Of a DNA stretch of 64,000 nucleotides, positions 24,889 to 44,395 are shown piece by piece. The stretch covers positions 558,001 through 622,000 of the forward strand of contig JAPETS010000011.1 in NCBI GenBank assembly GCA_026023565.1. Direction: 5' to 3'. A model generated the notes under the pieces. It ran no database searches. It was not told the DNA's origin and saw only the letters and a program-made list of their open reading frames with translations. How positions within the stretch are numbered: position 1 is the first letter of the stretch; each line of letters begins with the position of its first letter. The DNA is from Cirrosporium novae-zelandiae (lineage: Eukaryota). The translations under genes were made by a program, and so were the position numbers.

Positions 24889-25647
24889 TCCAAGGCTAGT
24901 CCCTCACGACCATTCTGGACGGTTTGATATTATAGCACCTGCATTAGTCACTTCGCTGCTCTTACCGCTTTAGATGCTTGCCTTTTGAAGCGGAATCAAG
25001 TCTTGAAAGTCTGAACGCGGAGATACCATGGCCTTTCGTATCGAAGCACATAGTTGATGCAAGGCGGTCCCACTAAAGATCATTGGCACTGCTCCCTCGG
25101 GCGTTAAACATTACTGTGTTCTATCCCAAATAATCCAACTCCATTACCTACCACCTGGTTTCTTGAAGATGGCTTCTGAGATCACGATGGACAAAGGTTC
25201 TCTACATCACCCTATGAGGCTCTGTCAGTCAGATACCTTCTATATTTCACACTGAAAGCCCGAAATGGTTCGATTTAAGGATATCAGCCGCCGTCATACC
25301 AAAGTCCTGTAAGTCTGAAGGGATCTGCTTTGTTCCTATAAATACTAATTAATATTATTTAACCAGCCGGGAAATAAAATTTATACTATCTTTCCCTCTT
25401 CCTATATTTTCAAATAAATATTTTGGTTCATCAGAGCTCGATCTTGCACATTCCAAATTATTTTCGTGACTGGTATAACGGAGCGAGAGATCACGTGTTG
25501 AGCGTTAACAGATAAGATGCCCCCACCATGCGACGCGAAAGTTTAGACTGGAAGGGTCCAGTGAATCTGGCGGGGCCAATTTTCTCCAACCTACCAGTTT
25601 GTTTTGTTCGCAATTCAGATCCCATTCAATTTCGACATTCAGGAGTC

Positions 25648-26219
25648 ATGTCTGGAGAAAGCCATAGTGTTGACGACGATCTCGAGAACCCAGGTCTCGC
25701 TATGTTGGGAAAAGTCGATTCACAGCTGATCGCAAATATCAAGGAACTTTTGCCAACACTACGGGTTAGCCAGCGCCGCTATCGACAAACTGAACTGGAG
25801 TGGAGTAAGGAATGTGATGATATCCAAAATTATTTCGATATTGTGAGTTAGAAAGATAGTTTTGAGAGCACAGCTAATTTGTTTGTTAGTACTTGAAGCC
25901 CAACTCTTCCGTGTTGAAGAACAAATCCTATCGTTACCGTCGGCTTGCCTATTATCATCAATTTCTGGGGCCCGTTGAGACCTTTACACCACATCAGTTG
26001 AGAGGGCAGCACACAGTGATGATCGTTATTAGACGGGGCCCTGGGTTTTCTCTGCTTTCTAGAAAAAAACATGAATCGGATGAAGGAAATGTGAAGGAGT
26101 CAGATACCATCGCTCTTCCCCAAGAAGAAGGCGCTGCAGTGCTTTTCAGATCGGATAGGCCTCGAAAAAATGATATTATTGAGGACGAAGGAATGATGTT
26201 TATAATATTGCAATACTGA
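25648..26219 (+). CDS. Hypothetical protein, 2 exons
   Basis: ATG 25648; an intron (gtgagt...ttag, ~25843-25889) links ORFs 25528-25851 and 25893-26219. Confidence 0.45.
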
Positions 26220-26337
26220 AATACCTATGAGGACAGACGAGCGCGATTATAACGTTCATAATATAATCGAGACCTTTCAAGTTGCTATATATTATTTATT
26301 TTTGAAAGGTCGTTTAATTAATTATTCTTGATCCTAT

Positions 26338-27933
26338 TTAATTCCAGAATTTCTTTAAGAACTCATCTTCTTTAGGCTCGCAAATTCCATCCCAATTCTG
26401 AGTCGCGTTTCCATTTCTATTCGCATTAGAACCAGCTGGGAAGGTCCAGTCCACAGAGTTCAGAGCCTCAGTCACATTTCCATTTCCATTCGCATTAGGA
26501 CCAGCTGGGAAGGTCCAGTCCACAGAGTTCAGGGCCTCAGTCACATCTCCATTTCCATTCGCATTAGGACCAGCTGAGAAGGTCCAGCCTACAGAGTTCA
26601 GGGCCTCAGTCACATCTCCATTATCTCCATTTCCATTCGCATTAGGACCAGCTGGGAAGGTCCAGTCCACAGAGTTCAGGGCCTCAGTCACATCTCCATT
26701 TCCATTCGCATTAGGACCAGCTGGGAAGGTCCAGTCCACAGAGTTCAGGGCCTCAGTCACTCTATTGTCCCCTGTCGGTGTAATATAGTTTGATGGGTAA
26801 GAAACATCGCAATTAAGCTGGATGGATAACGGAGGTTGAACAATCTCCAATCTATTTTGGGTTACAGAGGCCGTGGTTAAGTTAGAAGAGTCATAATCTT
26901 CACAAAAGGCTTGATCTATTTTTCCCGCATCAGTGATGCTGCATTATATCGATACAGATTTCCAACTCACCAGATCCCGATCGTTGATTTGATATTTCTT
27001 GAACTGTAGTGGCAAGACAAGATTCAGAACGAACGGTAGATACAGGAAACATGTCACTCGATTTCGGGTTAGGGCACTCGATACCAGCGGCAGAAGGCTT
27101 GTGTTGGAGAAAGTATTGGCAGGTAGATGTATCCTCCGCAAATTCTTGTACTTCGAGACGTCGTCGTTTCCTTTTGTGTTCGTCATCATTTTCTTCTTCA
27201 TTATCGTCTTCTTTGTCACTCTCGGAACTTACATGGTCAGTACTGACGACCAATTAGATAATTTCATACTCACCAGCTTGATGCTTTATCAAGAACTACA
27301 TTGCATGGGAAAGGTGACGGAGATATAGCTGTACTCCAATTGATATAAGTAAAAGAAATCTATGAGACCATCCTTCCGCAATAGAGGGAGAATCGGCTAG
27401 CACTTACTAGACGCTTGGTTGATGAATTTATCGAGTCTTGATATATAATTTCCACCATGGCTCTTTTCGTGCCGGATGAGATCGGTAGGTCTATTAAAGG
27501 CCTTATCACACTTAACACAATAAGTTTCATCAATGATTATTGCAAGAGTTTTATGTGTAGCTTCTTTTGACTGGCGGATATGTCGATTTAAATGGTCGTT
27601 TCGGGGGTAAGCTTTTTTGCAATCTATAACTGGGCACACACATTGCTTGGTAGGTCCAACCGGTGTCATATCCAGTAATTTATCGAGAAGTATCTTTTTG
27701 AGTTTTTCGTTCTCGGCTTTGAGGAATTCTATGGCCTGTGACATTGATGCAAAATCTTTCTTGCTTCTGTTGTAACCTTTCCTTTCCTTGGACGATTTGG
27801 AGCGACGACGGTTGTAATCAATTGTTCTACAGGATGAATCTGATTCTAAGTGACTATCCTCAGAACTTCGCTGTGAAGTCGTCTGGAACCGTCCCCCAAT
27901 GGGGAGTACAGCGGTAGGAGAAGTTATAGGCAT
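26338..27933 (-). CDS. C2H2 zinc-finger transcription factor with acidic tract, NLS and C-terminal 21-aa repeats (4 exons)
   Basis: Fingers CPVIDCKKAYPRNDHLNRH and CVKCDKAFNRPTDLIRHEKSH. In-frame splicing links them to SESDKEDDNEEE..KRKRRR and then to five VTEALNSVDWTFPAGPNANGNGD repeats (63-bp DNA unit). Confidence 0.7.
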
Positions 27934-28210
27934 ATTAAGGTCGTAAAAACAAGATTAAGAATAATTCCTAGGGAAACCCTTTGAATGATGAAAGGAGTTA
28001 TCTTAAAGCAAGAATTTCGCGAAACCCAATTGAACCTTCGGTGGTCTAATTAGGCGATAGCCGTATAAGCGAGCTACATGACCTTAACTATCCTCCGGTA
28101 CTTAGCTACTGTAGTTCAAGCTTTATAGAGAAGTTAGCAGCTATTAGAAAGTTAGTTAATCAAGAATCTCTCCGTTGATATTCTAGGAAAGCGAACAGCT
28201 ATATATGAAG

Positions 28211-28485
28211 CTAGGATCTGTTGCACTGCGGATTGCACAAGGGTCACTATATCGTCAGCGAATCAAGACCATAGTAGCGCCCTGCTTACTTTCCTTATTC
28301 GAGAGAAAGGTGAGATTTAGAATGAATCAACGAAGGAATTTTATATATTAGAAACAAAAACAGTTGTTATATTATCTAATACTGAATCTTGCGACGTTTG
28401 GTAGTTCCCGTTTTTCCAGATAATTGCTTTCTACTATGACTAACTGAGTGTGTCAATCTTTCGACTCTTTTCCAACAACTCTTTT
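28211..28485. repeat. ~275-bp direct repeat, copy 1 (orphan 3' end and downstream region of a chromo-like gene)
   Basis: Aligns with 39843-40123; most differences are transitions. Confidence 0.92.
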
Positions 28486-29473
28486 TATGGCCTGGCCTTA
28501 ATCCTTCTGACAATGTGTCAAGGATGAGGCTCTGATAGTGTAGGTAGCGGTACGGGTGCGATACTTGCGCGTAGAGTAATAGTATCTTAATAGTAGTAAC
28601 TCAGTATAATACAAGACTGAAAGTTGGGGTTGACTTAGTGTGATTAGTGGCGATCTAAAAGACCGCTAGTCTATATTTCAAGGGTGAACTGGCCAAAACA
28701 GCCAATTCTATTTAGATGTTCTCCAAGCGCTTTTCTCTGGATCCATGAACCAAGGACCACCTTCGGTTATATTCCCCGTGCTTGGCCAAACACTCTTGAT
28801 ATGTACACGCGAAATTTTACAAAGTTGCGGAGTCTTATCTCTGGCCTTTTAGCGTTTCAGGTTTCAGGATACAGTTTTACTAGATCTATTCTTCTTTAGC
28901 CCCACTCTTCCTGTATCCCCCTCTCATGAACACCTTGTTCTTTCTAAAGAATATTTTGGAATTGAAGAACTTATCTGATACATTATCACATAAATGAACA
29001 ACTCATGATCTTCATGAAACCCCTACCATGAATGGCTAGCCTCGACGACGTGGCTCCAGAAATTCGACCGAAGACTGAAAATATGGGTTGAGACCTAGCT
29101 TAACTGTCAGCCTGCAGTGTCATTCAAATCCTTTGGTCTTCCGCCTCCGCTAATTTGTACTCCACCGTGCCCTTGACCTCGTCATTCATCTTAGCTAAAT
29201 CATCCCAGTCCAAATGGAATATCACTTGTCTAAAGTCGGACGTATACTTCGTTGAGTAATGCCCTAGGCCTTTTTCTGCTATGATTTCGGTGCCTTCTGG
29301 GATAAGTTGCTCACAAAGAGTCCGGGCTGCCATCAATTATAAGGTATCTTTCTTTTGATTGTTCCCTCGCCAACTCGCATCTATTACTCTGCGCTAACCG
29401 CTCATAGATAACCACGCATCTCTAAACTGGCGCTAAATAGACCGTTCAACATCCACCGAGAGAAAAACTTGGG

Positions 29474-29644
29474 ACTATATCAAGCCCTATTGCAATCTAC
29501 CCCACGTCTGGTCACCCTAAGACCTAACCACAAAGTCTACTTGCATCACCTTGTAACTATATCAAGCCCTATTGCAACCTACCCCACGTCTGGTCACCCT
29601 AAGACCTAACCACAAAGTCTACTTGCATCACTTTGTAGCTATAT
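29474..29644. repeat. 82-bp tandem duplication
   Basis: actatatcaagccctattgcaa...cttgcatcac-ttgta occurs at 29474 and 29556. Confidence 0.92.
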
Positions 29645-29987
29645 GTAGAACTAGAATTACGGTGTCTTACGAAGTGTTCATGGTTTTGCATCCATAGAAA
29701 ATATTCGTAGTAAACAAGGGTTCCACTCCACATCAAATATAAAAGATGGTTCATCACATGAAGCGAATTACGTTAGAAAAGCTATTCAAACAACAGTGAA
29801 ACTATTAAAAAATCTCAATATTAAGCCTGTATTCCCTGCTCAACGGGAATATTTTTTCATCCATCGATTACTGGTAGGATGAAGCCTGACCTAGCATAGA
29901 TTTCCCTTAGGTTTCGTGTACTATGTGTGCTGATTTATAATATACTATAGACTTCAAAATCGTTAATCACTATCCGGCCAGTCCACT

Positions 29988-30371
29988 ATGTCCTACAACG
30001 TCTACCTTATGCGCTACGCTGGGATGCCTCGTGATCATCTTACTATTTTCGTAGAAACCAATGAAGATGGGTCTGAGACCGGGTACATATACCAGGTCAC
30101 GGGGGACATTCAGACAGGGATGACACATGGCCACAAGAAGTCTTATCAAAATCCGGAACAATCAGCGACATTTCTGGGCAAAGAATTGATTGGGAAAGTT
30201 TCTGTCGAGAAATATCCACGTGTCAAAGAGATTTGCGATAGTATTGTTCCACCAAAGAAGCAGTTTGAACGAAATACGCGTCTTTATCCTTCAGAGCCTC
30301 TCAGACGTTGCCAGGAGTGGACGCAAGAGGCTATCCAAGAATTAAAAACCGCAGAAGTCCTACAGCAGTAG
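29988..30371 (+). CDS. Conserved small fungal protein (DUF6540-like)
   Basis: YNVYL..Y.GMPRDH..IFVET...GYIYQVTGDIQTGM...PPKKQF....PLRRCQEWTQEAIQEL, with a His and a CQEW motif. Confidence 0.6.
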   Translation: MSYNVYLMRYAGMPRDHLTIFVETNEDGSETGYIYQVTGDIQTGMTHGHKKSYQNPEQSATFLGKELIGKVSVEKYPRVKEICDSIVPPKKQFERNTRLYPSEPLRRCQEWTQEAIQELKTAEVLQQ

Positions 30372-30577
30372 TGCTTGCGATATCCTGCACAACAAAGAAG
30401 CCGGTCGAGAATGAATGAGGAAGAGCTATGTCAGTGTTTACCGTGTTTGGTAATGCCAATCATTCCCGCCTCTGTGAAAGAGTCATTAGTGCTGGTTTTC
30501 CATATTTTTGTTTTATTTTTTGAAGGAAAGAAACCTTTGTGTTGGATCAGATTTCATTGATAGCAAAATGGGCTGTC

Positions 30578-31483
30578 TCATGTCCATAGATCAGTACGCA
30601 GTAGTTGCATCCAAGCGTATTCGTTGACGAATGGATCCAGAATCTTCTCAATCCACTGAGACCAATCATCACCCCACCGTCCACAACAATAGAGTGCGGT
30701 GCTATATTCCCAATAACTCGGATACCAGCCTGCATATTGCCAGTCAATTATAGTCACTATATAATCATGACCGTAGGTCTTGCGGCTGTTCGTAGAATCG
30801 AGTTCGAATCCGATTCGTTTTACCACTGGTGTAATGATGATGTTTTTTCGTTGGAGATCGCCATGAGTGAAGATTGAAGGGTGGTTCTGAAAAACAGAAG
30901 AGAAGACTGTCCGGTAGAAGTTTGCTTTGTTTACTGGTAAGTTTTCCAGGAGATATCTCTTGATTAAAGCTTCGTTCATTGCATTTTCAGTGTCAAAGGG
31001 ACCGCTAGTGGAAAGCGAAGTAGCCCTATTACCAGAGAAAAATAGTGGATCACGAAAGGATCGCTTGTGAAGGCTGCCGAAATATCCAGGAGACGGAAGA
31101 TTGCGTAGTTGATCCCAGATTGTTCTCAGTTTATTTGAGATGAGTTCCTTTTGTTTTCTGCTTAATGAATGCCATTCCACAGCAAGTGTGTTTCCCACGA
31201 TATTTTCCATCACGATATATTGCTTATCTGAAAGATAGTCCGAGTATATTGCATAAACTTGTGGAACAGGAATAGATGTTTCTCGATTGATGAAAAGCAT
31301 ATTTTCTCCTTCTATGAGATCAACACCCGGACCATATTTGACGATAAAATGCTGGTTGACTCGTACAATGCGGCGACCACCGTAGCCACTCAAAACTTCT
31401 GAGTTCTCAATCTCATCATGTGTTGGTAACGGTGCTGGGAGGGACTTGGTATCCGCAAAGTAAGGTAGTTGGATGGTATCCAT
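30578..31483 (-). CDS. Phosphotransferase (APH/choline kinase-like) family protein
   Basis: FIVKYG, EGENM, IPVPQVY, YIVME, FTHGDLQRKNII and IIDWQYAGWYPSYWE. Confidence 0.9.
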   Translation of the reverse strand: MDTIQLPYFADTKSLPAPLPTHDEIENSEVLSGYGGRRIVRVNQHFIVKYGPGVDLIEGENMLFINRETSIPVPQVYAIYSDYLSDKQYIVMENIVGNTLAVEWHSLSRKQKELISNKLRTIWDQLRNLPSPGYFGSLHKRSFRDPLFFSGNRATSLSTSGPFDTENAMNEALIKRYLLENLPVNKANFYRTVFSSVFQNHPSIFTHGDLQRKNIIITPVVKRIGFELDSTNSRKTYGHDYIVTIIDWQYAGWYPSYWEYSTALYCCGRWGDDWSQWIEKILDPFVNEYAWMQLLRTDLWT

Positions 31484-31726
31484 TGTAGGGGTTGATAATG
31501 CTGGCTATTGACACGCAACCAGATGAAATTATGAGGCTAAAGTCCGAACGAAGATTGTCGCGGCACGTTGTCTGAAAAATACGTAAATCCACTAAGGGTC
31601 TAAGACTTTCTATCCAGGTCACGTGCTTAGATTGGCCATTTTTGTTAAGGTTTAGAAATTAGGGTCAGTTATTGTGAAATAAAATTATGCTTTTATTAAA
31701 ACAGTATTTATGTAATTAATGCGGTA

Positions 31727-31938
31727 CTATCTCCTAAACTGGGCACAAAAGGACCACCTTAGTAGGGATGTTATGTAGGGATCATGATAAGTCAGATAAC
31801 TGTTTTCAGGCAGAATCAGGTATCAAGTTTTTTGCTGAATCATACTGAGCCTCAAGATCTTATCATTGGGCCAATTGACCCCTCTAGTTTGACCCCCCTG
31901 CTAAGGTGGTCCTTTTGTGCCCAGGTTAGGAGATCTAG
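31727..31938. mobile_element. ~212-bp Tc1/mariner-type MITE flanked by TA
   Basis: ~40-bp TIRs (tctcctaaactgggcacaaaaggaccaccttag / ctaaggtggtccttttgtgcccaggttaggaga). TA at 31725-31726 and 31939-31940. Confidence 0.85.
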
Positions 31939-32025
31939 TACAGCTAAAACCCTTTGATTACTTGCTACTAACCGCCGCATCGCTGCATGTATGCCTGATT
32001 CCAAATCTTTTACTACTCCTAGCTT

Positions 32026-32439
32026 ATGGCTGAGCGCTCCGCCAGCGAGGTCGCTACCGTCAAGGCTCTTCCTATCGAAAGTGGGCTTGATACATTTCGT
32101 AATACATTCACGTTGAGGTACATGACTTCCAATGACACCGACCTTACACAAGTTATCGATCAACGGCTGTGTGATAATACCAGCTCGGGTGAATAACATC
32201 TGCCTGGTTTATGGAGTAGCTAATGAAGTATAGATAAGAAAGATTTGGTCCTTGATCTTATTTTGGCTCTCCAGGGTCAACCAACCGCCCGAACCCTTCG
32301 TGGAAAAACAAGTCACGGACCTCTCAGTGGTGAAATAGCTTTACTATACGCTCAACTAGCTTCTAATCAAATAGAAATCCATACCAGTGCTTTCACGTGC
32401 GAGAAGTTGGGCAGCTTTCTCATTCGGCACTCCATGTGA
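32026..32439 (+). pseudogene. Truncated N-terminal fragment resembling FunK1-type fungal kinases
   Basis: MAERSASEVATVKALPIESGLDTFRNTF..., an intron, then KDLVLDLILALQGQPTARTL...LSGEIALLYAQL and a stop. No kinase domain follows. Confidence 0.45.
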
Positions 32440-33048
32440 AGATGGCCATTCACGTTCGGCCCGGATAATTGGATAGCTAAATCCTATATTTGAATGTGAA
32501 GTGATTTCTTCATTGGTTGGTTTGTTTTTTTTGAATTGTTGCACAACATCATGCTAGAACGAGTTGTTTCCCACTGTTTCACATTTGTTGGTTTCCATCT
32601 ATGGAAACGGATAGTAGCTAGATCAGCGGTCCGAAAACTAATATTGAGTTTTGATATGAGAGACTGCTTTCAAGATTATCTCATAAATGAACATGGGAAA
32701 TTTAGACATCTGTTGTAAATAATATTCTAGGCGGTTCACTTAGTAGTAGGCCGACCGTAGAGAGGCCGCATGCGTGCCGCATGTGTACCTCAGGCACCCA
32801 AACTAGGGCTAGGGCTAACTTACTAATAGCTTAGTAAAGACTAACTCCAGGCCGGCAATCCAACGTTACGGTAATTCAATAAATAGTCTAATTGTATTTC
32901 ACAAAAAAATATCTCAGTAAGTTTGCACTCCGATGTACGCCTGCAACGTTCCATAGAATGTTTTTGGTGCGTATCTAACGACTTTTTTACTCTTCTCTCG
33001 CATAAACCTACTATCCCATGTAGGTGATGTTGGCGTAGTTGGAAAAGG

Positions 33049-34145
33049 TTAATTTCCGTATTCCCATGAAAGCAAATCATCAATAAATTCATCGTCTCGA
33101 AGGGCTTGCGTTTTCCACAATGCCGGGTCGATCATCAGATCGGACACTATCTCATCCGTATGCGCACTCGTTCTTTCCAAGGGAGCATTGGCAAAAGTCC
33201 TCGAAGATCCTTGTGCCGGGAGATTTTTAAATGTCGTTGACATGAAGTTTTGGTCCTTTTGCAACTTCCCATTTCTTTTTTCAATTGACAAGTCTCCCCC
33301 CTCTAGTTTATCAATCTCAGAGAATTTGCGTTTCAGTGAACCTTCGGTCATAGTTTCCAGCATCCTTATATCATGGCTAGGACTGCTTTCATCTACATTT
33401 TTCATTAGAATGGAGTAGAATACTGAGTTAAGAACGTACCAGACAAAGATAAAGGCACACGCTCTTCGTTGTCGGAAATATCCACAACATTATGCTGAAT
33501 TTTTATCTCCAGCTGTTCATTTATTTGCTGGCGGAAGGATTTTTTTTCTGACTCTATCCTTTCACTACTACAGTTCTGATGTCGTACCCATCCGGACAAG
33601 GTTCGAGACCGGTAAGAACATTTGTCGCATTTCTTTTTATATTCTATATCTAGAAGTTCTTGTTATTTCTAACTAATGAATAGTAAACAGAATAGCTCAC
33701 GTGAATAATAATGACGCCGCAGGTTGAATATATGCATGAACAATTTAGTACAGTCGGGGTAAGGACATTTCAATTGTGATCTAGCATCTGTACGTCTATC
33801 GTCGTCATAGGTGGAAAGAACACTAAGTGGAGTCTGTTGGACAGGACGATAACGCGTTGTTGTGGCTATAGACTCTTTTTCATCATTCGTATTTTTGGAC
33901 AAATGGGATATCCTCGGTGGGTTTGACTGAGCGCAGCAACTATGGACCAACGTGTTCTCGTAATCTGATGTGCAGAGAGGAGAGCGCTGAGCATTACAGA
34001 GTATACACTCTAGCATTTTGCGAACATGGTCGAGATTAAATTGCGTATTCGTCTTTAAATGTTGACGGAGATTCTCAGGCGATGGATAACATTGGAAGCA
34101 ATACGGGCAAGGCCATTTTGTGTAGGGAATCCTTTTCTCAGACAT
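33049..34145 (-). CDS. Multi-exon C2H2 zinc-finger protein
   Basis: CPYCFQCYPSPENLRQHL, CPYPDCTKLFMHIFNLRRH and CDKC...WVRH. Successive ORFs are separated by GT-AG introns; the 3' end is uncertain. Confidence 0.6.
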
Positions 34146-34222
34146 CTTGCAATAACGATGGATGGAAAACAGCGGGGTACGAACGACTTTTATTATGTAT
34201 ACGGTATACCTAGGGCATCTAA

Positions 34223-35707
34223 TTAGAACGGCTTCGACCACCGACTTTTCGGTTCGCTATCAACCGGCAGAGCTCCTTTGTCCAATGATTCAGGCTCTAC
34301 GATCCTTCGTCTAAGCGCTCTACGGTAAATTCTATCATACCCTTGACTGACACTGTCGTCTGATGGCATGCCCAGCCAATTGCGCCATCGATGCCGTAGG
34401 CGGAATAATAATCGGGGTCTCCAAGTCTTTGCTTTCCTTTTCAATGGAAAAATGCGTTCCAATCCAGACTTTCTGCCTCTTGAAAGCATGTTTAAGTGAG
34501 GCCCCAGAAATGGAAGTCCAGGTTTCTCTTTCATTAATTCCCGGTAAGTCTCATCGGTTTTGAAATGATCCGCATATTGTACCCCCACTTTAGAATCATA
34601 CTTTGCCACGCCTTTTACGACCGCGGCCAACGTATACCAATTGCGTATATTGAATAAATGCTTTGACCTAATTGTCAGCTACAGCTGCATTTTAAGACAT
34701 AGAGGGGTTTGCATACCACGACAACCGGATTCAGAATATCCCAAAAGTAAGGGTATACTCGGCAACAGTCTGCAACTTCATTACTCAGATTATACCAGCG
34801 AGCACATAAGTCCCGGATTAATTCACTCTGTCTCATATGTTTCATGTCATTTTTGGTCAAATTTCCAAAAGCTGCCAGATCAGACTTCGTCAATCTAGAT
34901 GCGAGATCTATGGCTGAGCGACTCGAAACAACTTCAAAAATGAACTTCAATTCCGTGAAACAGCACACTTTTTCATCCCAGTCTTTGTTTGCGTCCAAGC
35001 TGTCACTGTCCAGATGTTCGAAACGCTCTTCTAATATAGGAAGGGAATATAATGTCCCCCTGAAATCTGTCTCAAACAACCTTCGGATTGGTGTTATCAT
35101 GTCCATCAAGCGGGCTTCGGTGACATTCAATGGATCGCTACTATTTAAGGCGCACCGTAGAGCTAGGAGAGTGAATGGACTAAAGGTTTTCTTTTGTGAA
35201 AAGACCTATCAATAGTTTAACAACCTGTGCTTAAAAAGGGGGGCAGTTAATAATTACTTTTTCAGCGTTTTGATATCTCTCTATATCTTCTGGATGTTTC
35301 CGTAGATGGGTGGATATATGTTGAGAGAGTTTTCCATACCAGTTGCAAAAGGCTATCGCTGAATAAACAGGTTCTCCGACTATTGCAGTGCACACCAAAT
35401 CTTGAAAAAGGACAGCTTTTAGGGAATCGGTACTCATTTGCTCCATAATATTGATCAACCCGTGAGTCTCTTTTATATATGGCTCATCAAAGCTGATATG
35501 GGGGAAATGAACTTGGATCTGTCCACGAGCAATATTCAGACCACTCTTCTCAGTATTGATATGATACAAACCAAATTCACGTATTAGTTGGATATCTTGG
35601 GGATTTTCGAGTTCCAAAATCTTTTTAATCTTTTCTTTCCACCAGTTAGCTTTCTTTGGATCTTCGAGCACAATACTAGATGGGAGAGGCGAAGCGCCGA
35701 CAGGCAT
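34223..35707 (-). CDS. Degenerate RasGEF (CDC25)-like domain protein, 3 exons
   Basis: ORFs 35231-35707, 34675-35130 and 34223-34630 are joinable. Motifs SAIDLASRLTKSDLAAF, RWYNLSNEV, IRNWYTLAAVVKGV and PGLPFLGPHL resemble RasGEF conserved regions. Confidence 0.55.
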
Positions 35708-35822
35708 TGTTCAAAAGAAATATCAGTTGGAAATTAATGAAACAGACAATTTTTAGCAATGAGTTCTCATATTTTGTGCCTAAAGGAGTTCAAAGGCGAC
35801 ATTGTACTTATCACTCCACCAT

Positions 35823-35915
35823 CTACTCCCACAACCTGCTCCCACAACCTGCTCCCACTACCTGCTCCCACTACCTGCTCCCACAACCTGCTCCCACTAC
35901 CTACTCCCACAATCT
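35823..35915. repeat. 13-bp tandem repeat x7
   Basis: ctgctcccac(a/t)ac units. Confidence 0.95.
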
Positions 35916-35939
35916 ATTCCGGCAAACAACCGCCATACC

Positions 35940-37236
35940 TTACTGCAGTGTACTTTGCTTCACTCTGTCGTTCCTTGACCGCTTTAAAAAATCGAGACAA
36001 AATTGGATGGCAAAATCCTTGTCCCAGTTGAAAGCAGCTCGCCGAACCAGTTGTCGCCATTGATGTCTGAGCCTTGTCCAAGCATGGTCAATATCACCGA
36101 ATCGATATTCTACCATACGCTGTTGGTATATGAAATTACGAAAATCCCAAAAACCTTCCCAAGCAAGCAAATTGATACTGCGGGTACAGACTTTTTTATA
36201 ATGAACCCGAGGGTTTTTGATTTTGGGTCCTAAAACATCGAAAGCACCTCGATTTGCTATGTAAGCCGCTTTGTTGAATGAAGGGGAGGTTTGCATTGAT
36301 AAATCGATAATATCCGTAGGCGAAAGAAATTCCGAAGCCTTCTGTAGAAAACGACCCAGCCGATTGTTATTTAATATACCATTGCGGAGATAAACTTCAT
36401 CATTATCATAAAGAAGCCAAGGAAGTGTTCTGTCCGTATTCGGGAAAAGATGTCGCAGTAAAAAATTATATAAAAAATCATACACCTCTAATCTATCAAG
36501 GCTGTCTGCGATTGAATAATCTTCAAGTTTCCATTTAAGCACCAAATCTTTCTGTTGTTCGTATTCCATATCGGTTTGGTAAACAGTCCTGCAAAAAAAC
36601 CAGCAGATCTCCATTATAAACCAACAGCATATTGTAGCTTTGTAAAAACGGGGTTTCTGGGTGGCGTTAAACGAAGTTCTTGTGTATATATGCTGAGAGA
36701 TATCCAACGGTTCATCCACGCATAAAGTGCGTTTAGGTATGCCGCCGAACGGTGGAGAAATACATTCCGAGAATTTTCTACCAACCAAAGGATCCGTATA
36801 AAGATTTTGTAATAAACGAAGTTTACGGCAACGATTAATGATCATTAAAATTTGTTCATCGGTGGGATTTTGATCGAAGTCACGTTTTAAAAGATTGTTG
36901 AGAATTTCCGGGTCTGTATATTCGTTTGGACGCCGGTACAATAAACCACTATACTTGATGGCAGTACAACGATTAATATTGATAATTTGGCATAGTTGAA
37001 TATCACGTTCATAGATAGTTGAATTTCGCTATATAAATTAATTAAATTATAAGATCGATTAAAATATTGTTACTAACGAGAATGGCCCTTGATATGTGTA
37101 GCAAGTGCTGCTGGTTTTGGATAATATCATGAAACAAATGGCAACATTGTGCTATGTAGCTGATGTCGTCGAAATCTGTAAACATACATAATATAGAAAT
37201 AAGCAACTCGATAGGAAGGTCAAAAATAGTAGCCAT
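35940..37236 (-). CDS. F-box-like protein
   Basis: N-terminal MATIFDLPIELLISILCMFTDFDDISYIAQCCHLFHDII fits an F-box. Probably spliced to ORF 35940-36941. Confidence 0.6.
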
Positions 37237-37363
37237 TATTAATAAGGTGTGAAGATAAAAATCAATCTAATGAAGATACGATACCTTTATAGTTTTTCTA
37301 CTCGACTGATTGTTAACTTGTTAACATGGAAGTGGACCCTAAAGGTGAGGCGAGGTGAGCCGA

Positions 37364-37564
37364 AGAGGTCTTCGTAGGGGAGAGGTCTTCGTAGGGAAGC
37401 TAAAGCCCTAGGGGAGAGGTGCTCGTAGGGGAGAGGTCTTCGTAGGGAAGCCAAAGCCCTAGGGGAGAGGTGCTCGTAGGGGAGAGGTCTTCGTAGGGAA
37501 GCCAAAGCCCTAGGGGAGAGGTGCTCGTAGGGGAGAGGTCTTCGTAGGGAAGCCAAAGCCCTAG
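37364..37564. repeat. Minisatellite, 51-bp higher-order unit built from ~17-bp subunits
   Basis: agaggtcttcgtagggaagccaaagccctaggggagaggtgctcgtagggg x ~4. Confidence 0.95.
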
Positions 37565-37832
37565 TGGATTGGAGAACTAAACGCCTAATAACCGCCGGAG
37601 ACTTGATGTTCTAGAAATAGCACGTACCTTTTGATGTTATAAATATTAGGTAGGTCGAGTTCGTTCCCCGGAAGCGCTTTAACCCATCAGCGTTTTAGCG
37701 CGAGCGCTTAACGAAACTAAAAATAAAATCGCTATTACCTCTAATTTTAGCTTATCCGTAAATTCATAACGCATTCCTGTTTTAATGAAGAGAGAGTGCG
37801 AGAAATTACTTTTGACATTATACAAAAGGGCA

Positions 37833-38553
37833 ATGACTGATCACAATCAAGAAAGGACGATTTGGCGAACCAAGTGTCGGGAGAAGCTTTCTGAACATAT
37901 TAGTATGACTCGTCTTTAACCATTTAGGGAAATGCTAACTTGATATAGACAGCAGGTTAAACATCAAGCTCGCTCCGTCTGACGTTCGCTTAATCACCAG
38001 CGAGAGAGAAACTTACAAGTGGATATGTAATCCTGGAAAGGAATATTTGTTTGCTAAACATCTGAGCAAACTGTCCATTGGTGTCTATAAAGATTTATGT
38101 GCGGAGGTGGGTAAATCTTTCGAAGCGGTAAGCAATGAGCTTCCGATACCACTTGAGAAGATAGAGATCCAGGCAAATGGCAATGCAGTATGTGCTTTCA
38201 AGGTCCCTAGTTCCTTTATACTTCTCTAAGCCCTGGCACAGAAATTGGACTTCGTCGATGCGGATGGGCTTAACGCTCAAATCACCGAATTACAATCACA
38301 AGTATGGAAACTTCAAACGGATTGCAGTTTCTGGCAGTCTAACTTAGAAGCGGAAATTCGAAAACGAAAAGAGGCTGAAGCAGAGTTAGCAAATGTGCGT
38401 ATATGGATGAAAAACACATTAACTCGTGAACGACGCCGACGTGAAACAATAAAGAGACTTATCCCCACATTATCTTTCTACAGGAAGGAAGCATCACGAT
38501 CCAAGAAAGGATTTAATGAAATTGTATGTATTATAGATAGATTCAAAAATTAA
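37833..38553 (+). CDS. Hypothetical coiled-coil protein, multi-exon
   Basis: MTDHNQERTIWRTKCREKLSEHI, an intron, then LNIKLAPSDVRLI...YKW...LFAKHLSK, with a coiled-coil final exon. Confidence 0.5.
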
Positions 38554-39344
38554 TCATTGCAGTGTTGTTTAAAAATGAAATGAAAGCTGCCCCACTCGAA
38601 GGATATACTGCAGGGTCAAGGCCTTTTGTATCTTGAGAGCCTCTCTTTTCGCTATAGTCTTCAGATCCATCCTCTGATGAGTTTGGGTATAGATGTTCGT
38701 CCTTCGTCTTCCTTAGACTTAGATACACAGGGTGGTCTGGGGAGCATGGAATATCAAATGTACGGATTTGTCGAGATCTCGAATAAATGTTACACTATTT
38801 CAATTTCAATTAGCAGGGCTCAGGAAATAGTTATTCGACAAGTACTATGATACAGTTTTTGATGCCGGCTAGCAGTTTAGGCCCTTAGGTATCGTAAGAA
38901 ACCGAGACCAGGTTTATGGGAATCTATAGACTTCAATCATATAATTTTGGCGTGGCGTGGTAAGAAGTCTTAGATTTGGGTCGGCAACGCGAAGCCCTCT
39001 ATGGGATAGGTTGGAGTTTCGTGCAAGTTTTCTTCGATGTTTGTCAGATATTTACCATAGTATTGATAACTGGAACTCAACTGGGGGTAAGGAGCTCTCG
39101 CTTAAATAACTCGCTTCACTCAAATTTGCGGGTAACGTGGAGTTGGTCACCCACCAAAAATCTATTCCCTATATTATTCACTTCACTATTGTTTATTATA
39201 AATTATAGGCCTTAAGTGTAGGTTTACTTAGAGTTTTAATAGGACTCTTAATTAAAAGCCCAGCACTGATTGTTAGTCGATTTCTGGTGAAGAAACCAAC
39301 TCTCGATCGGTATTTCAACTTTGTTATACAACAACGCGCCCTGC

Positions 39345-39800
39345 ATGAAAATCGTGACCATTCAACTAAGTGATATCGACAGTGTCAGCTTTGAACCCGA
39401 CAGCCTGACAGTGTTAAAAAATATCGAGACGTTTGGGGATAAAATCGATAATATCGCGGAAGCTGTGGCAGGGAAGCTCAGTGGGGAACGTATAGCTATC
39501 GCTGACTTACCTAGTTCACCAAATCTGATCAGGAAGAAATCAGTAAGTAATTCTTATGCGAACAGGAACTCGTTCTGACTTGCGTTAATGCAGAAATTCC
39601 TACAAATTCTTTCCAAGTATTTTGCTCCTGGCCAGTACGAAGTCGTCTCTACTTTGCAAGTGTATCACCTATCGGGAAGGAAATCCATTGCATGGGACCC
39701 TGAAGGCCACAAAAGAGTCGTAGCTTACGTGGTCCTGCAAGATGTGATAGTAGAGGATAATGCAGGTAGAACCTGTCGGGTGGAAGTTGGATCAATGTAA
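39345..39800 (+). CDS. Hypothetical protein, 2 exons
   Basis: ORFs 39321-39578 and 39588-39800 are joinable by a gtaagt...gcag intron. Confidence 0.4.
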
Positions 39801-39842
39801 TCTAGTCATATATTATGCCGGAGCCCCCCACTGATGACGAAA

Positions 39843-40123
39843 CTAGGATCTGTTGCACTACGGATTGCACGAGGGTCACTATATCGTCAGCGAATCAAGA
39901 TCATGGCAGCGCCCTGCTTACCTTCCTTATTCGAGAGAAAGGTGAGGTTTAAAATGAATCAACGAAAGAAGCTTGTATATTAGGAGCAAAAACAGTTGTT
40001 ACATTATCTAATACTAAATCTTGCGACGTTTGGTAGTTCTGGTTCCCGTCTTTCCAAGCAGTCGCTTTCTACTATGACTAACTGAGTGTATCAATCTTTC
40101 GACTCTTTTCCAGCGACTCTTTT
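39843..40123. repeat. ~275-bp direct repeat, copy 2
   Basis: Matches 28211-28485 and overlaps the 3' end of chromo paralog B. Confidence 0.92.
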
Positions 40124-40723
40124 CACGAATTAACCTATTCTCGCATTGAGAAACCAGCTTTGGTGCATTGACCAGTTCAGCACGAACCCACGATGAAGCC
40201 CATTCCAGGAAGCATTTAACTTCGCCATTTGCTGACGATCTCACATCGTATATGTAAGCCGAACCCCAAGTTGTCCACACGGAACAAGAGGCCTTGCTTT
40301 TGAACTGAATATCACTTATATCCACCCACGTTGGACACCAATCTATCAAATACTCGACTTGACTGAAACGACCTTTGTATATACGTTTATTGAGAATGCC
40401 ACGAATTATCCAATCTTTATTTTCAGTCAAATATTCCTGCTCGGTGCGAAGCCGGTTTTTGTTAATAGTGGTTTCATCGCTGGTAGTGTCTGTGCGTGCC
40501 CGAGCTGTTACTACAGCGTTCAGGTCTTTCTCGTTAGAAAGGAAATGGTCGGTTTGAGGTGCAAAGCGTTCGCAATCATCCAAGTGTTCTATAATTTGTT
40601 AAGTCCACGAAAATATCAATCTAGATATATGGGATGCCTACTTTCACGATTTGCACCATGCGAAACTGAAAGGGTTTTAGAGATTATCGGCGCAAGAGTT
40701 TGGTAGGCGGGAGAAGATGACAT
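40014..40723 (-). CDS. Chromo-like domain protein (paralog B), 2 exons, next gene after the captain
   Basis: Exons 40723-40642 and 40588-40014. WIIRGILNKRIYKGRFSQVEYLIDWCPTWV...FLEWASSWVRAELVNAPKLV shares WVRAELVNAP with paralog A. Confidence 0.65.
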
Positions 40724-41314
40724 TGCAAATGATGGGTATTGTAAGTGATAGACAGATATTAGAAAGTGAGAAGATGAAAAATGATGAGGAAGATAACAGC
40801 CTATTTATAGGATTTTCGATGGCTTCTCCCTGCCGAGCGGCTATTCCGCCCTTTTTTATTGGTCGTTGTTTCTATTATTTATCTATATGGATAAAGGCTG
40901 ACGTCTTTATGGCCACCGAAAATAAGAAGTGTGATTAACCCGTTAAATTACCATACGCCCAAAATAACAAAATGTCAATATCTATAGTACTTTACCCAAC
41001 CTCCTTTATGGCAAATACGAAACCTATGTCTTCGAAAATCTGGATGGTATTGTATAGACAAAGGATTACTCTAATTATCACTATTGGTTGGAAACACTTT
41101 TGCAGATATGCATTACCAGTGTCCTATATAGCGAAGGTAGCAAACACAATGGACTAGCAGGAGAACCTCGTGGGTATATCGAAACTTGTTGTTTGCTATT
41201 ATGCAGTAGGTGTAATAGAGTGGTTGGGGTTAGGGTGAGTTAAAGATTGGTCAAGAAATGCAGCAGGTGATAGACCGCACCATATGCTATAGGAGCATAT
41301 GCAGTGTGTTCGGT

Positions 41315-44018
41315 CTACTTTTTGGGTTTTTTTCCCTCCAAGGACGATGATTCGCCCTCCCTTTTACGTTTTGAATAGCCAGTGACCTGGTGACTTGGCA
41401 TTCCGGTCTTGGAAGGCTCGAGTGCATGAACATCCTGAAAATGATCTTTGAGCAGCTGCGGATCCTGAAACCGGTATTTCCTTTGGCAGAGAGGATGAGG
41501 GCAGGGTGGGGTTCCTCCACAAGCAGTCAGATGTTCATCTATGTGAACAAACAAAGACTTCTTATGCATCCATTGCTTACATCGAACCGAAGCACGCTTG
41601 CTTTCATCACCGAGACAGAATGGACAGAACCCCGGGAAAATAAGTGTATAGCGATAGGTGAGAATACCGCAACGGAATAAGAGTTTGTCTGAAGCGAGAT
41701 GCTCTTCTTCCCAGTGTTTTTCCCACGTTTCGACATCCTTCATCCATTGACAACAAATATAGCAATATTCAACAAAAGTGTTTTTGTAGTTCCTATGAAC
41801 TCGACGAAGAATGGGGTCCGAAATTACTTTCTTGGTGGTTGTTTGTTGAAGACGTCTACTTTCACATAGATGAATATGTCTAGAACGACTTTCGGGACAA
41901 AGCCTTCAAAAATTATTTATTAGTGTAAAGACGGTGGAAATTAAAGACAGGCATTGCAACTTACTCTAACATAGCTTTATCACATATAGGGCAATGCCCA
42001 TTTATAGGTGATTCTCCTGGTCTGTATAGAACTCTCGCGTGGTCGCCCTGAGCACAGAGGGTAGCAAGGTCTGTTAGAGCTTGTGTCCCAGCTTCCGAGC
42101 GTATTTTGGCTTTTGTGAATAGCATACGCGAGAGTCGGTCACGCTCTGGTAAGAGTTTCATAACTACAGCCAAAGTCTCTTTGCGCAGTTGCTGGTTCGC
42201 TTCCAATAGAGGAGTGTAAACTGAATCCCCGTCGAAGCATCGCTGTCGTAATTCATCTACTGCAGCTTTCCGAAGACGAGCTTTTTTGGAATATAGCTCC
42301 TGTCGATGCTGATAAAGCTTTTTGTTGTGTTTAATATCATCGGCCGCCGTCAAGGTTTGTATCTCGTTATTTAGAGTGGCAACCTCTGGCATCTGATTAA
42401 ACTTGCGCTCTTCCTCGGCAGAAAGATCGGTGGGAAGACGTGTATCACGATAGTTCCCTAGTCTTCGAAGTTGGCTTATATCGTCCAAGTGAGATTCCTC
42501 GCTAAAAATGGCAGCCTGGAGATCGAAATGGGGAACGTTGTCGACATAACAATCACTAAAAATGGGTTTGCTTTTCTGTCCCATGTGATGCATCCGCGCG
42601 GCCTCCGTTGTTATTCCTGACCATGAAGGGATCAGCGTATGCCTTCAGCTAATTGCCTAAAGAGAAGTCTCACCATCAAGAACGGTACCTGCATGCCGAC
42701 GAACAGCATGGATAGTCACATGTTTCATATACCCAAATCTATCCTGGTGGCCATGCAAGAAGGTGTACAGCGCACCTACGCTAAGTGCATTGTCGGTCAC
42801 CCTTTCCGGAGTAACCATTCGAAAAACGGGAAGTTCCAAGGCTGTTTCTTTCCAATTCAGCTCAAGGGCATTACGCCCTGGCGGCGGTTGCAGGTTGGAT
42901 ACATCTTGCACAGAGCGAATTGTCTTGAATGCGTCATCCGCCAAAGCATGGGCAAAGATATACAGCAAAAAATTGTCACATAGCTTTTCGGGCTCGTAGA
43001 AGGGGGGCGTGGGGCTAAAGATTGTCAACGGCCGAGCAAAAGGGATGAAAAGACACTTACGCCCTAGAATTGAGAACAACTCCTTTCTTCAAATTTTTCA
43101 ATTTCGTTTTAAATTCTAATTCTGGGAGGGCACTGTTTCTGTTCTCGCGCTGGCCTTTCTGCCACGAGAACTGTACTGCGCATAGTAGTATCGTTCCTTC
43201 TTGAGGGGTTGAACCAGATACCACCATTATTTTAAGGTCCTAGACACATTGTTATTTGCTATATCATTGCCCCGCTGAATAGTTACTACCTTATAACGTA
43301 GAGCTTGATTACTGCCACGATAGCAATTTGACTCTAATGCAGTTCCCACACGTGCCGCCGTACACCAAACCAGAATCCAAAACGCAGAAATGGAGACCAG
43401 AAGGCGCGGATGAGGATATGTATGAATATCTTCTTTCCAAATAGATTCTAGAAGGTCACTGCGGTCTTGAGGGGCTACTGTCCCTTGTTCCTTTTGAATA
43501 TTTAGGACGTTCGTCTGTGTAGGAAGTATTTCGGTTATATACTAATGACAATAATAAGCAGACTCCAAAGAAGGATACGAAAAATAATCAGACATGTTTC
43601 ATCTCTCTTTGACTGGAGGTGTCTATCCGGATATTGTATTTCCTGTAGCATACAGTGCTAAATCTTGCCCAGCAAGTGAGTAAGCTTGCGATAGTTGGCT
43701 GCTCATCTAGTACTCCACGTATTGAGAAAGCTAGCCATTTCATAAAATGCTTTAAGCGATCGATATCTGGAGCTTGACCTGCAGGTACCCCATTGGGAAC
43801 ATATTTTGAAAGGTATCTATTTCTGTCAGCAGCAATTCTCACAATATAAAAGCCACGTACTCTTCCCAGCGACTAAGTAGTAGTTCGTATATTTCTTTGG
43901 TTGGGACAGATAAGCCAGCCCAAGGGTTAGAGTCAACCAAGGTTTGTGGAAATTCTTCCAAAAATCCTCTTTCCTCTGCAAGGGCAGCAGCATCATATAA
44001 CTTCCGTGGGCGAGGCAT
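41315..44018 (-). CDS. Starship captain: DUF3435 tyrosine recombinase, 7 exons, ~797 aa
   Basis: Exons 44018-43861, 43816-43594, 43541-43290, 43239-43061, 43014-42674, 42616-41965 and 41903-41315 total 2394 nt, in frame, all GT-AG. Motifs TAARVGT (Arg), WQKG (Lys), AHALADDAF, HAVRR (HxxR) and MGQ...FSDCY (Tyr), plus C-terminal Cys/His clusters (CPIC, YCYIC, FCPFCLGD, CPHPLC). Confidence 0.93.
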
Positions 44019-44195
44019 AATGTAGAAATAAAGATAGCCCAAAGTGCTAAAGTAAGAAAGTTGATTTATGATGAAAAGAAAGAAGGCACGTCTTATATAT
44101 TTAATGAAAGTTTTATTCATTTGTATTATACAGTTAATTACAGAAATAAATCTCTGCGCCGATACAGGTAAAATAAATAAAGATAGGAGGGGGAA

Positions 44196-44245
44196 GGTGA
44201 GGTTGGGTGAGACTGGGTGAAGTTGGGTGAGATTGGGTGAGCCTG
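44196..44245. repeat. Five GGTGA motifs at exact 10-bp spacing in the Starship terminus
   Basis: GGTGA at 44196, 44206, 44216, 44226 and 44236. Confidence 0.9.
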
Positions 44246-44319
44246 GACTGAGAGAGCGCGAAGGAGATCTTTTAAACCGGCGCAAGAAATTGAAGAAATA
44301 TACGTTTTTCAATTCAGAG

Positions 44320-44383
44320 AGCTTGAGACCGGCCGGTTAGTAGTTGGGTCGGTGACGACCAGCGAATACCGGCTGTTGTATGT
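44320..44383 (+). rRNA. 3' half of a 5S rRNA gene (5' half displaced by the Starship)
   Basis: AGCTTGAGACCGGCCGGTTAGTAGTTGGGTCGGTGACGACCAGCGAATACCGGCTGTTGTATGT matches the conserved 3' ~64 nt of ascomycete 5S rRNA. Upstream sequence lacks the 5' half (ACATACGACCAT...CCCGTCCGCTC). Confidence 0.93.
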
Positions 44384-44395
44384 TTTTTTTTTTTT
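44383..44395 (+). terminator. RNA polymerase III oligo-T terminator of the 5S gene
   Basis: T13 run directly after ...TGTTGTATG. Confidence 0.85.

What the first reader, a model, noticed from the sequence alone, without database searches (positions are those of the whole stretch)
41315..44395. Apparently intact Starship integrated into, and splitting, a 5S rRNA gene
Seen: the captain's ATG lies about 300 bp from a junction (~44319/44320) where sequence switches abruptly to the 3' half of a 5S gene with its T13 terminator. The 5' half is missing from the window, and the element is antisense to the 5S gene. Established: Starships are DUF3435-mobilised giant fungal transposons, and some lineages target 5S rDNA. 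Inference: the break is near 5S nt ~56, in the box A region of the internal promoter. The missing ~55 nt should lie at the far end of an element of more than 44 kb, sharing a short direct repeat around AGC(TT).
Basis: partly seen in the sequence, partly recalled or inferred. Interest (0 to 1): 0.9.

Follow-up and report, generated by a model that had tools for sequence, protein, structure and literature searches.

The report
Starship transposon end splitting 5S gene
This is the recombinase-bearing end of a giant fungal "Starship" transposon lodged inside a cut 5S ribosomal RNA gene, a well-documented habit of these elements, seen here in a little-studied fungal class.

Summary
An unbroken DUF3435 tyrosine-recombinase ("captain") gene lies on the minus strand (44018-41315). 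Its ATG is 301 bp from a sharp junction at 44319/44320. Right of the junction is the 3' part of a 5S rRNA gene (nt 56 to the end, 44320-44384, plus strand) and a run of 13 T. The window comes from a Cirrosporium novae-zelandiae assembly (Xylobotryomycetes). The public gene model (582 aa) is truncated; homologues support a 7-exon, 797-aa protein with a C2H2-like tail. The Starship companion genes DUF3723 and ferric reductase lie at 0.5-7.8 kb, so the element probably fills 1-44319 and runs off the left edge. The 5' half of the 5S gene is not in the window and no genome is held, so the far boundary, the direct repeat and any empty site could not be tested. [quoted passage not shown] Enterprise-family Aspergillus elements have direct repeats at this same 5S position. 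The captain is very divergent (at most 33% identity to anything) and its family is unresolved. Verdict: real, a new member of a known kind, of modest interest.

The parts
44320..44384 (+). 3' part of a 5S rRNA gene (5S nt 56 to the 3' end)
   Evidence: Rfam RF00001 at 27.3 bits. Truncated alignment covers model 48-120, reliable from 56. 83-86% identity to 5 intact fungal 5S genes, with 44320 = nt 56.
44383..44395 (+). Run of 13 T; the expected RNA polymerase III terminator of the 5S gene (function inferred)
   Evidence: Read directly. Intact 5S copies also end in T-rich runs.
44319..44320 (.). Junction between element DNA (left) and 5S DNA (right)
   Evidence: Identity to intact 5S drops from 83-86% to 28-36% at this column.
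44019..44319 (-). 301-bp terminal region between the element end and the captain ATG; candidate recombinase-binding end (inferred)
   Evidence: starfish expects the boundary usually within 2 kb of the captain start (PMC11162782 passage).
44196..44241 (+). Subterminal tandem repeat, about 10-nt unit GGTGAGATTG x 4.6
   Evidence: Tandem Repeats Finder. 3 of the window's 8 GGGTGAG copies lie here. GGGTGAG also occurs in the inverted repeats of fam06 Aspergillus Starships, but with opposite polarity relative to the 5S 3' half.
41315..44018 (-). Captain gene: DUF3435 tyrosine recombinase, 797 aa. Seven exons: 44018-43861, 43816-43594, 43541-43290, 43239-43061, 43014-42674, 42616-41965, 41903-41315 (stop included). 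Six GT-AG introns of 44-61 nt.
   Evidence: Pfam DUF3435 4.4e-32 on the public model P0001. Splicing worked out. Single BLASTP alignments cross the exon 6/7 join in 6 of 8 homologues. R171, K219, H353, R356 and Y388 (P0001 numbering) are conserved. Cre/Xer/integrase fold.
41315..41903 (-). Exon 7: C-terminal C2H2-like zinc-finger tail, left out of the public gene model
   Evidence: 37 of 150 homologues align their C-termini here. The join spacing fits the homologues. CxxC and Hx3-4H motifs are present. No Pfam hit.
562..3074 (+). DUF3723 gene (Starship auxiliary gene), in at least 3 exons
   Evidence: Pfam PF12520 at 1.1e-25 and 3.3e-80; the middle exon frame is seen.
6295..7793 (+). Ferric reductase (FRE) gene (Starship auxiliary gene)
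   Evidence: Pfam Ferric_reduct 9.9e-5 (22.8 bits, under its 28-bit cut-off), FAD_binding_8 7.3e-11, NAD_binding_6 1.1e-3.
15102..17623 (+). Two long adjoining ORFs, the second with TPR repeats; possibly NLR-like cargo (not shown)
   Evidence: TPR_12 at 3.7e-6, below its cut-off; no NACHT or NB-ARC hit.
27397..34256 (.). Other putative cargo: C2H2 proteins (27397-27954 minus, 33669-34256 minus), DUF6540 (29967-30371 plus), APH-type phosphotransferase (30578-31504 minus)
   Evidence: Pfam.
1..44319 (-). The part of the putative Starship that lies in the window; the distal (3') end is beyond the window start
   Evidence: Inferred from the captain at one end and DUF3723/FRE at the other, and from the absence of a 5S 5' half in the window.

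Best explanation
Window 1-44319 is the captain-bearing (5') portion of a Starship, a giant cargo-carrying transposon of Pezizomycotina. It integrated into one copy of the dispersed 5S rRNA genes of Cirrosporium novae-zelandiae between 5S nt 55 and 56. Shown: an unbroken 797-aa DUF3435 tyrosine recombinase with the R-K-H-R-Y catalytic set points inward, 301 bp from a sharp junction with the 5S 3' part, and DUF3723 and ferric-reductase genes lie about 36-44 kb further in. Inferred from the family: the captain recognises a short sequence in the 5S gene around (CTT)AAGC and recombines the element ends with it. This leaves short direct repeats. The 5S 5' half (nt 1-55) would be left at the distal end, more than 44 kb to the left on the plus strand. 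That 5S copy is inactivated, but the multicopy family tolerates the loss, which makes the conserved gene a safe and ever-present landing site. Because the captain reading frame is intact, the element may still be mobile (inference).
For: The window is placed in C. novae-zelandiae by a 100%-identical public protein, M1834_000949, on a 795,753-bp contig. DUF3435 scores 4.4e-32. The catalytic residues are conserved in a 25-sequence alignment. The AlphaFold model has pLDDT 80.5, and every listed Foldseek PDB match is a tyrosine recombinase (Cre, XerA/H, IntI, Tn1549 integrase), at E 3e-3 to 1e-1. The 7-exon model has no stop codon or frameshift. The junction falls at 5S nt 55/56. DUF3723 (3.3e-80) and FRE lie at the left edge; PMC9156397 names both as conserved Starship genes. 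23% of 222 curated Starship insertion sites are in 5S rDNA (PMC11162782). starfish records fam06 (Enterprise-family) Aspergillus elements whose direct repeats read gcttaag, aagccacacg and tttaagccacac. These match 5S nt 52-61 of the intact copies. In a maximum-likelihood tree the captain is sister to the clade holding both fam06-labelled proteins.
Against: The distal boundary, the direct repeat, terminal inverted repeats and an empty site were not seen. By the strict definition (PMC9156397) this is so far a 'Starship-like region' with one defined end. No patatin gene and no clear NLR were found. No second copy of the captain exists in the protein collections: its 90% cluster has 1 member on 1 contig, and the best other hit is 33% identical. 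So there is no sign of recent transposition. No inverted copy of the terminal region is in the window. Family placement is weak: SH-aLRT is 80, and grouping with the fam07-labelled clade is not rejected (AU p 0.39). The assembly is a metagenome-derived genome and the junction lies in a repeated gene.
Confidence: 0.8

Rival explanations
1. A fossil Starship-like region. A 5S-targeted insertion did occur, but the distal end has since been lost or rearranged, so the element can no longer move despite its open captain frame.
For: The captain is single-copy with no close relative anywhere. No patatin or clear NLR gene was found. No terminal inverted repeat partner is in the window. Degraded Starship-like regions are common (PMC9156397 passages).
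Against: All 7 exons are open and all 6 introns keep GT-AG. The catalytic residues are kept. The junction is sharp to the base. DUF3723 and FRE appear readable through introns.
Confidence: 0.13
2. Assembly artefact: the metagenome assembler wrongly joined a contig ending in a captain gene to a contig starting inside a repeated 5S gene.
For: 5S genes are multicopy and break assemblies: 19 of the 24 metagenome loci have the 5S match within about 100 bases of a contig end. The genome is a MAG. Read support could not be inspected.
Against: A repeat-mediated misjoin should run through shared 5S sequence and keep a whole gene. Here homology stops abruptly at nt 56, with no 5S-like sequence to the left. 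The break falls at the 5S site used by known Starships. 99% of sampled 31-mers across 43700-44900 are present in an independent contig set of run X1, though X1 may be the source sample.
Confidence: 0.04
3. Chance neighbourhood: a 5S pseudogene was truncated by an unrelated deletion or another transposon, and happens to lie next to a solo DUF3435 gene.
For: Many DUF3435 genes could not be assigned to elements ('solo' captains; PMC11162782 passage).
Against: The break is 301 bp upstream of the captain, in the expected orientation and distance, and at a 5S position used by fam06 Starships. Starship auxiliary genes lie downstream. No other transposase domain was found between the captain and the 5S gene.
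Confidence: 0.03

Closest known systems
Enterprise-family (starfish fam06) 5S-rDNA-targeting Starships of Aspergillus, e.g. starfish elements aspnig13_s01999 and aspacu4_s00331, and Osiris of A. fumigatus
   Same: DUF3435 captain a few hundred bp inside the boundary. In aspacu4 the inverted repeat lies 288 bp from the captain, and in aspnig13 234 bp. Direct repeats (gcttaag, aagccacacg, tttaagccacac) fall at 5S nt about 52-64, the position broken here at nt 55/56. Cargo includes DUF3723, FRE and an APH-type gene. Homologous captains carry C2H2-type tails. GGGTGAG motifs lie near the ends. Osiris inserts specifically in 5S rDNA (PMC12153272).
   Different: The captain is at most 26% identical to the two fam06-labelled proteins tested. 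Its membership of fam06 is not resolved. The GGGTGAG repeats here are 73 bp from the junction and have opposite polarity relative to the 5S 3' half. The host is Xylobotryomycetes, not Eurotiomycetes. The distal end is unseen.
Voyager of Macrophomina phaseolina (Voyager-family)
   Same: Giant Starship that always inserts in a 5S rDNA copy and is predicted to inactivate it. It carries DUF3723, FRE, PLP and NLR genes (PMC9156397).
   Different: Voyager inserts 20 bp from the 5S 5' start at target GCCCTGTATTCT, not at nt 55/56. No patatin gene was found here.
Bacterial integrative and conjugative elements and phage integrases that target tRNA genes
   Same: A tyrosine recombinase drives site-specific integration of a large cargo element into a conserved small-RNA gene, which serves as a stable landing site. 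The analogy is drawn in PMC9156397. The fold matches Cre, Xer and Tn1549 integrase.
   Different: Those elements usually rebuild the RNA gene's end from element sequence. Here the 5S gene is split and left broken. The host is eukaryotic, the recombinase gene has introns, and no conjugation genes are present.

Membership tests
Starship (Gluck-Thaler et al. 2022, 2024) | Captain is a DUF3435-domain tyrosine recombinase | tested here: met
   PF11917 at 4.4e-32, 112 bits against a 25.8 cut-off. R171, K219, H353, R356 and Y388 are conserved. The fold matches Cre, Xer and integrases.
Starship (Gluck-Thaler et al. 2022, 2024) | Captain at the 5' end, reading inward, with the boundary usually within 2 kb upstream | tested here: met
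   The ATG at 44018 is 301 bp from the 44319/44320 junction and the gene reads away from it. The criterion is quoted.
Starship (Gluck-Thaler et al. 2022, 2024) | Cargo downstream of the captain, often with the auxiliary genes DUF3723, FRE, PLP and NLR | tested here: met
   DUF3723 and FRE are found. PLP is not found. NLR is uncertain (TPR only). Two of the four auxiliary families are present.
Starship (Gluck-Thaler et al. 2022, 2024) | Direct repeats (target-site duplication) at both boundaries | not testable with these tools
   The distal end is outside the window and no genome is held. Only the captain-side junction is seen.
Starship (Gluck-Thaler et al. 2022, 2024) | Terminal inverted repeats (occasional feature) | tested here: inconclusive
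   No inverted partner of the terminal region is in the window. No CTCACCC cluster lies on the left side. The partner may lie beyond the window.
Starship (Gluck-Thaler et al. 2022, 2024) | Insertion polymorphism: an empty site in another genome | not testable with these tools
   Only one run holds the DNA and it is the probable source.
Enterprise-family (fam06) 5S-targeting Starships | Captain falls inside the fam06 clade | tested here: inconclusive
   The tree has 59 rows (58 hits of at least 500 aa; 91 shorter hits dropped). The captain is sister to the starred clade holding both fam06 labels, but with SH-aLRT of only 80. Joining it to the fam07-labelled clade is not rejected, AU p 0.39. Only 5 rows carry family labels.
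Enterprise-family (fam06) 5S-targeting Starships | Insertion at the (CTT)AAGC(C) site of the 5S gene | tested here: met
   The break is at 5S nt 55/56, inside TTAAGC. The fam06 direct repeats gcttaag, aagccacacg and tttaagccacac cover the same bases. That those Aspergillus repeats lie in 5S is inferred from their match to 5S sequence and from the paper's text.
Voyager-family | Target 20 bp from the 5S 5' start (GCCCTGTATTCT) | tested here: not met
   The break is at nt 55/56, against the Voyager site.
5S rRNA gene (Rfam RF00001) | Full-length match at or above the gathering score of 38 bits | tested here: not met
   27.3 bits. Only model positions 56-120 are present. It is a gene fragment, not a functional gene.

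The most novel reading that the evidence does not exclude
The captain belongs to a deep, so far undescribed Starship lineage, found in Xylobotryomycetes and in lichen-forming fungi (nearest relatives in Lecanora, Candelina and Coniocarpon at about 30% identity). It uses the same 5S nt 52-58 site as the Aspergillus Enterprise-family elements. That would mean either that this site preference and its GGGTGAG-type end repeats are far older than the known families, or that 5S targeting arose independently once more on the very same bases.
Probability: 0.3. Interest if true: 0.45.

Novelty: new member of a known kind. Interest (0 to 1): 0.3.

Why it matters
The finding adds a probable 5S-targeting Starship in Xylobotryomycetes. 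That word does not occur in the main text of the starfish survey, nor in the held part of its supplement. Three papers mention the species, and judging by their titles and abstracts (search listing only) none is about mobile elements. The captain is unusually divergent yet breaks the 5S gene at the bases used by Aspergillus Enterprise-family elements. This makes it a useful data point on whether 5S targeting is ancient or repeatedly evolved. It also shows that the public gene model for this captain is truncated by about 215 residues, including the zinc-finger tail that may take part in target choice. It does not change what is known about how Starships work.

Tried and rejected
- Whole genome: none is held, so the left-hand boundary could not be searched.
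- Earlier findings of this scan: nothing by place, words or sequence.
- Word-based protein searches found only the protein itself. The exhaustive HMMER search was needed to find relatives.
- Sequencing runs: only X1 (the probable source) holds the DNA. X2 and X3 hold next to none of its words, which is no evidence of absence.
- Metagenome scan with the 5S core gave 24 loci, all ordinary 5S genes or genes cut by contig ends. None was split at nt 56 beside a captain.
- Terminal inverted repeat search within the window: none.
- GGGTGAG end-repeat resemblance to aspnig13_tyr2057 (gggtgagattgggtgag here against the reverse complement of ctcaccctaatctcaccc, 17 of 18 with one gap): kept only as a lead, because its polarity relative to the 5S 3' half is opposite and it lies 73 bp inside.
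- Idea that 44.4-55.2 kb is an LTR element bounded by repeats: rejected. Similarity is limited to about 100 bp plus a G run, and no reverse transcriptase was found.
- Family assignment by best hit: rejected. Labelled hits of fam03, fam06, fam07 and fam08 all score similarly.
- Supplement of PMC11162782: only the first 4.0 million characters are held. Tables S12 and S13 (curated insertion sites and repeats) may be cut off and Figure 5C cannot be seen, so I could not map this site onto the paper's five 5S target sites.
Full report
**What is there.** On the minus strand an ATG at 44018 opens a gene whose pieces hit Pfam DUF3435. To its right, at 44319/44320, the sequence changes abruptly. From 44320 to 44384 the plus strand reads as the 3' part of a 5S rRNA gene, followed by 13 T at 44383-44395.

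**5S evidence from Rfam.** The default Rfam scan lists nothing, because half a gene cannot reach the gathering score of 38 bits. The permissive scan gives RF00001 at 27.3 bits, E 0.0016 in 501 bp and E 0.2 over the whole window. When the search stretch starts at 44312, Infernal returns a 5'-truncated match to model 48-120. Confident columns begin at AGC, model 56-58.

**Independent check of the 5S fragment.**
- I searched public metagenome contigs for the 33-nt core of the fragment and got 24 loci.
- I scanned 18 of the 24. The other 6 had the match within 44 bases of a contig end. All 18 are 5S genes above gathering and 5 are complete.
- Against those 5 complete genes the window is 83-86% identical over the 65 columns from 44320 on.
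- It is 28-36% identical over the 50 columns before, and 44320 aligns with 5S nt 56 in every case.
- No 5' half of a 5S gene is anywhere in the window.

**Where it comes from.** A public protein 100% identical to the fifth ORF piece is M1834_000949 of a metagenome-assembled genome of Cirrosporium novae-zelandiae, on a 795,753-bp contig. The species belongs to Xylobotryomycetes, Pezizomycotina. No whole genome is held for the window.

**The captain gene.** The public model (P0001, 582 aa) ends at a TAA that lies inside a GTAAGT splice donor. Several lines of evidence support a longer model.
- 37 of the 150 other proteins in hand align their C-terminal regions to the next open frame, 41315-41905.
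- In homologues only 2-4 residues separate the two aligned blocks.
- Splicing 41964-41904 as a 61-nt GT-AG intron joins the frames with exactly two residues between.
- The public model also skips 20 residues by using a longer second intron. The 25-sequence alignment shows a gap there in P0001 only.
- The revised gene has 7 exons and 6 GT-AG introns of 44-61 nt, encodes 797 aa, and ends at 41315.
- Single BLASTP alignments then run across the exon 6/7 join in 6 of 8 homologues tested. The other two end before it.
- The tail carries CxxC and Hx3-4H motifs. Sources name several homologues 'C2H2-type domain-containing protein'. Pfam sees nothing in the tail.

**Is it a working-type recombinase?**
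- P0001 matches DUF3435 at 4.4e-32 over profile positions 6-399 of 418.
- In the alignment, K219 and Y388 are invariant and R171 and R356 nearly so. H353 sits in the H-x-x-R-R motif.
- The position that is His in most members is Gln (Q378), as in 9 of the 24 aligned homologues.
- An AlphaFold model built on that alignment has mean pLDDT 80.5.
- All 28 listed Foldseek PDB matches are tyrosine recombinases: Cre and its Tre variant, XerA, XerH, an archaeal Xer, integron integrase and Tn1549 integrase. E-values run from 3e-3 to 1e-1, and none reaches 1e-3.
- So the captain frame and catalytic set are intact. Activity is not shown.

**The rest of the element.**
- Long ORFs across the window were scanned against Pfam: 39 ORFs, taken from the 47 ORFs of at least 130 aa. 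The captain pieces and overlapping antisense frames were left out.
- At the far left lie a DUF3723 gene (562-3074, 1.1e-25 and 3.3e-80; a middle exon frame is visible) and a ferric reductase (6295-7793).
- These are two of the four 'auxiliary' families that PMC9156397 reports with captains. Voyager's reference genes are numbered in the order captain, NLR, FRE, DUF3723, PLP.
- A TPR-bearing ORF pair lies at 15102-17623. No patatin gene and no NACHT domain were found.
- Other genes between are of accessory type: C2H2 proteins, DUF6540 and an APH-like kinase.
- G+C content is even across the junction.
- I infer that the element fills 1-44319 and continues past the window start. The Voyager-like gene order suggests the end is not far beyond, but that is a guess.

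**Comparison with what is known.** Passages read in three papers settle that this kind of thing is established.
- Voyager always inserts in a 5S rDNA copy, 20 bp from its 5' start (PMC9156397).
- The Enterprise-family navis Osiris of Aspergillus fumigatus inserts specifically in 5S rDNA (PMC12153272).
- In the held part of the starfish supplement, several Aspergillus elements have direct repeats that read as 5S nt about 46-64: gcttaag/gctaag (aspnig13_tyr2057), aagccacacg (aspacu4_tyr352), tttaagccacac (aspjen1_tyr1572), gccgtacttaagccac (aspnig3_284515) and tgtggcttaagtacggctga (aspche2_tyr886).
- The first two are labelled fam06, which is the family of the Enterprise reference captain.
- The break here, between nt 55 and 56 inside TTAAGC, is thus at a site already in use.
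- Those elements also have GGGTGAG motifs in their inverted repeats. Here a tandem array of GGTGAGNTTG sits 73-123 bp inside the end.
- Its polarity relative to the 5S 3' half is the reverse of the Aspergillus cases, so I treat this only as a lead.

**Which family?**
- The captain is remote from everything. Among 1.84 billion representative proteins there are 493 hits at E<=1e-3, only 11 (itself included) at 1e-30, and at most 33% identity among the ten best hits.
- The nearest named ones come from lichen-forming fungi and Penicillium.
- I could label 5 hits through accession numbers in starfish Table S4: P0019 fam08, P0028 fam03, P0036 and P0057 fam06, and P0034 (through a cluster member) fam07.
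- In a quick IQ-TREE of 59 rows, the captain is sister to a well-supported clade with both fam06 labels, but at SH-aLRT of only 80. The fam03 and fam08 labels lie across a supported split.
- Forcing the captain to join the fam07-labelled clade costs 3.75 log-likelihood units and is not rejected (AU p 0.39).
- Family membership is therefore open: Enterprise-like or a lineage of its own.

**What could not be done.**
- The predicted 5S 5' half, the direct repeat and an empty site all need sequence outside the window.
- Only one sequencing run holds this DNA and it is probably the source.
- A misassembly cannot be formally excluded. It is unlikely, because homology to 5S ends abruptly rather than running through a shared repeat.

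**Verdict.** This is a real feature, correctly read by the first stage: the captain end of a Starship or Starship-like element in a split 5S gene. It is a new member of a known kind. The points of interest are the host class, the divergence of the captain, and the mis-annotated gene model.

Noticed in passing
window 41315-44018 (minus strand): The public gene model for this captain (M1834_000949, 582 aa) is truncated. It reads into the sixth intron and stops there, and it skips 20 residues at the second intron. The homologue-supported protein is 797 aa with a C2H2-like tail.
   Followed up: yes
window 44872-44970 and 55069-55160; also 44469-44495 and 54814-54840: A repeat of about 100 bp (91% identical over 82 nt) and a G-run motif recur 10.2-10.3 kb apart in the right flank. 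An alignment shows no wider similarity, so this is not an LTR pair. It may be a short dispersed repeat.
   Followed up: partly
window 28207-28485 and 39839-40123: A direct repeat of about 280 bp (89-91% identical), 11.6 kb apart, inside the putative element. It brackets the DUF6540, APH and C2H2 genes. It could be a segmental duplication or the ends of a nested element.
   Followed up: no
window 10604-10697, 22659-23104, 55159-55183: Short inverted and direct repeats share a GGTCTGGTCGG-type motif, both inside the element and in the right flank. This suggests a small dispersed (MITE-like) repeat family.
   Followed up: no
window 9068-10334, 14888-15115, 24608-24933, 26407-26829, 35803-35945, 37313-37567: Several coding-length tandem arrays (periods 51, 23, 45, 69, 13 and 17 nt) lie inside the putative cargo, some within long ORFs that have no Pfam match.
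   Followed up: no
window 56178-57812 (minus strand) and 59667-61838 (minus strand): The right flank carries an OTT_1508-like deaminase gene (4.6e-21) and a glycoside hydrolase family 3 gene. These are presumed host genes outside the element.
   Followed up: no
window 44440-44482: A G-rich tract (GGTTGGG, GGGGGG runs) lies just downstream of the 5S terminator. It loosely resembles the GGTGAG/GTTGGG repeats inside the element end. No explanation.
   Followed up: no
protein P0020 (not in the window): The same Cirrosporium assembly encodes at least one other DUF3435 protein (M1834_004231, 650 aa, on a 482,025-bp contig). It is 29% identical to this captain and groups with a fam03-labelled protein in the tree.
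   Followed up: partly
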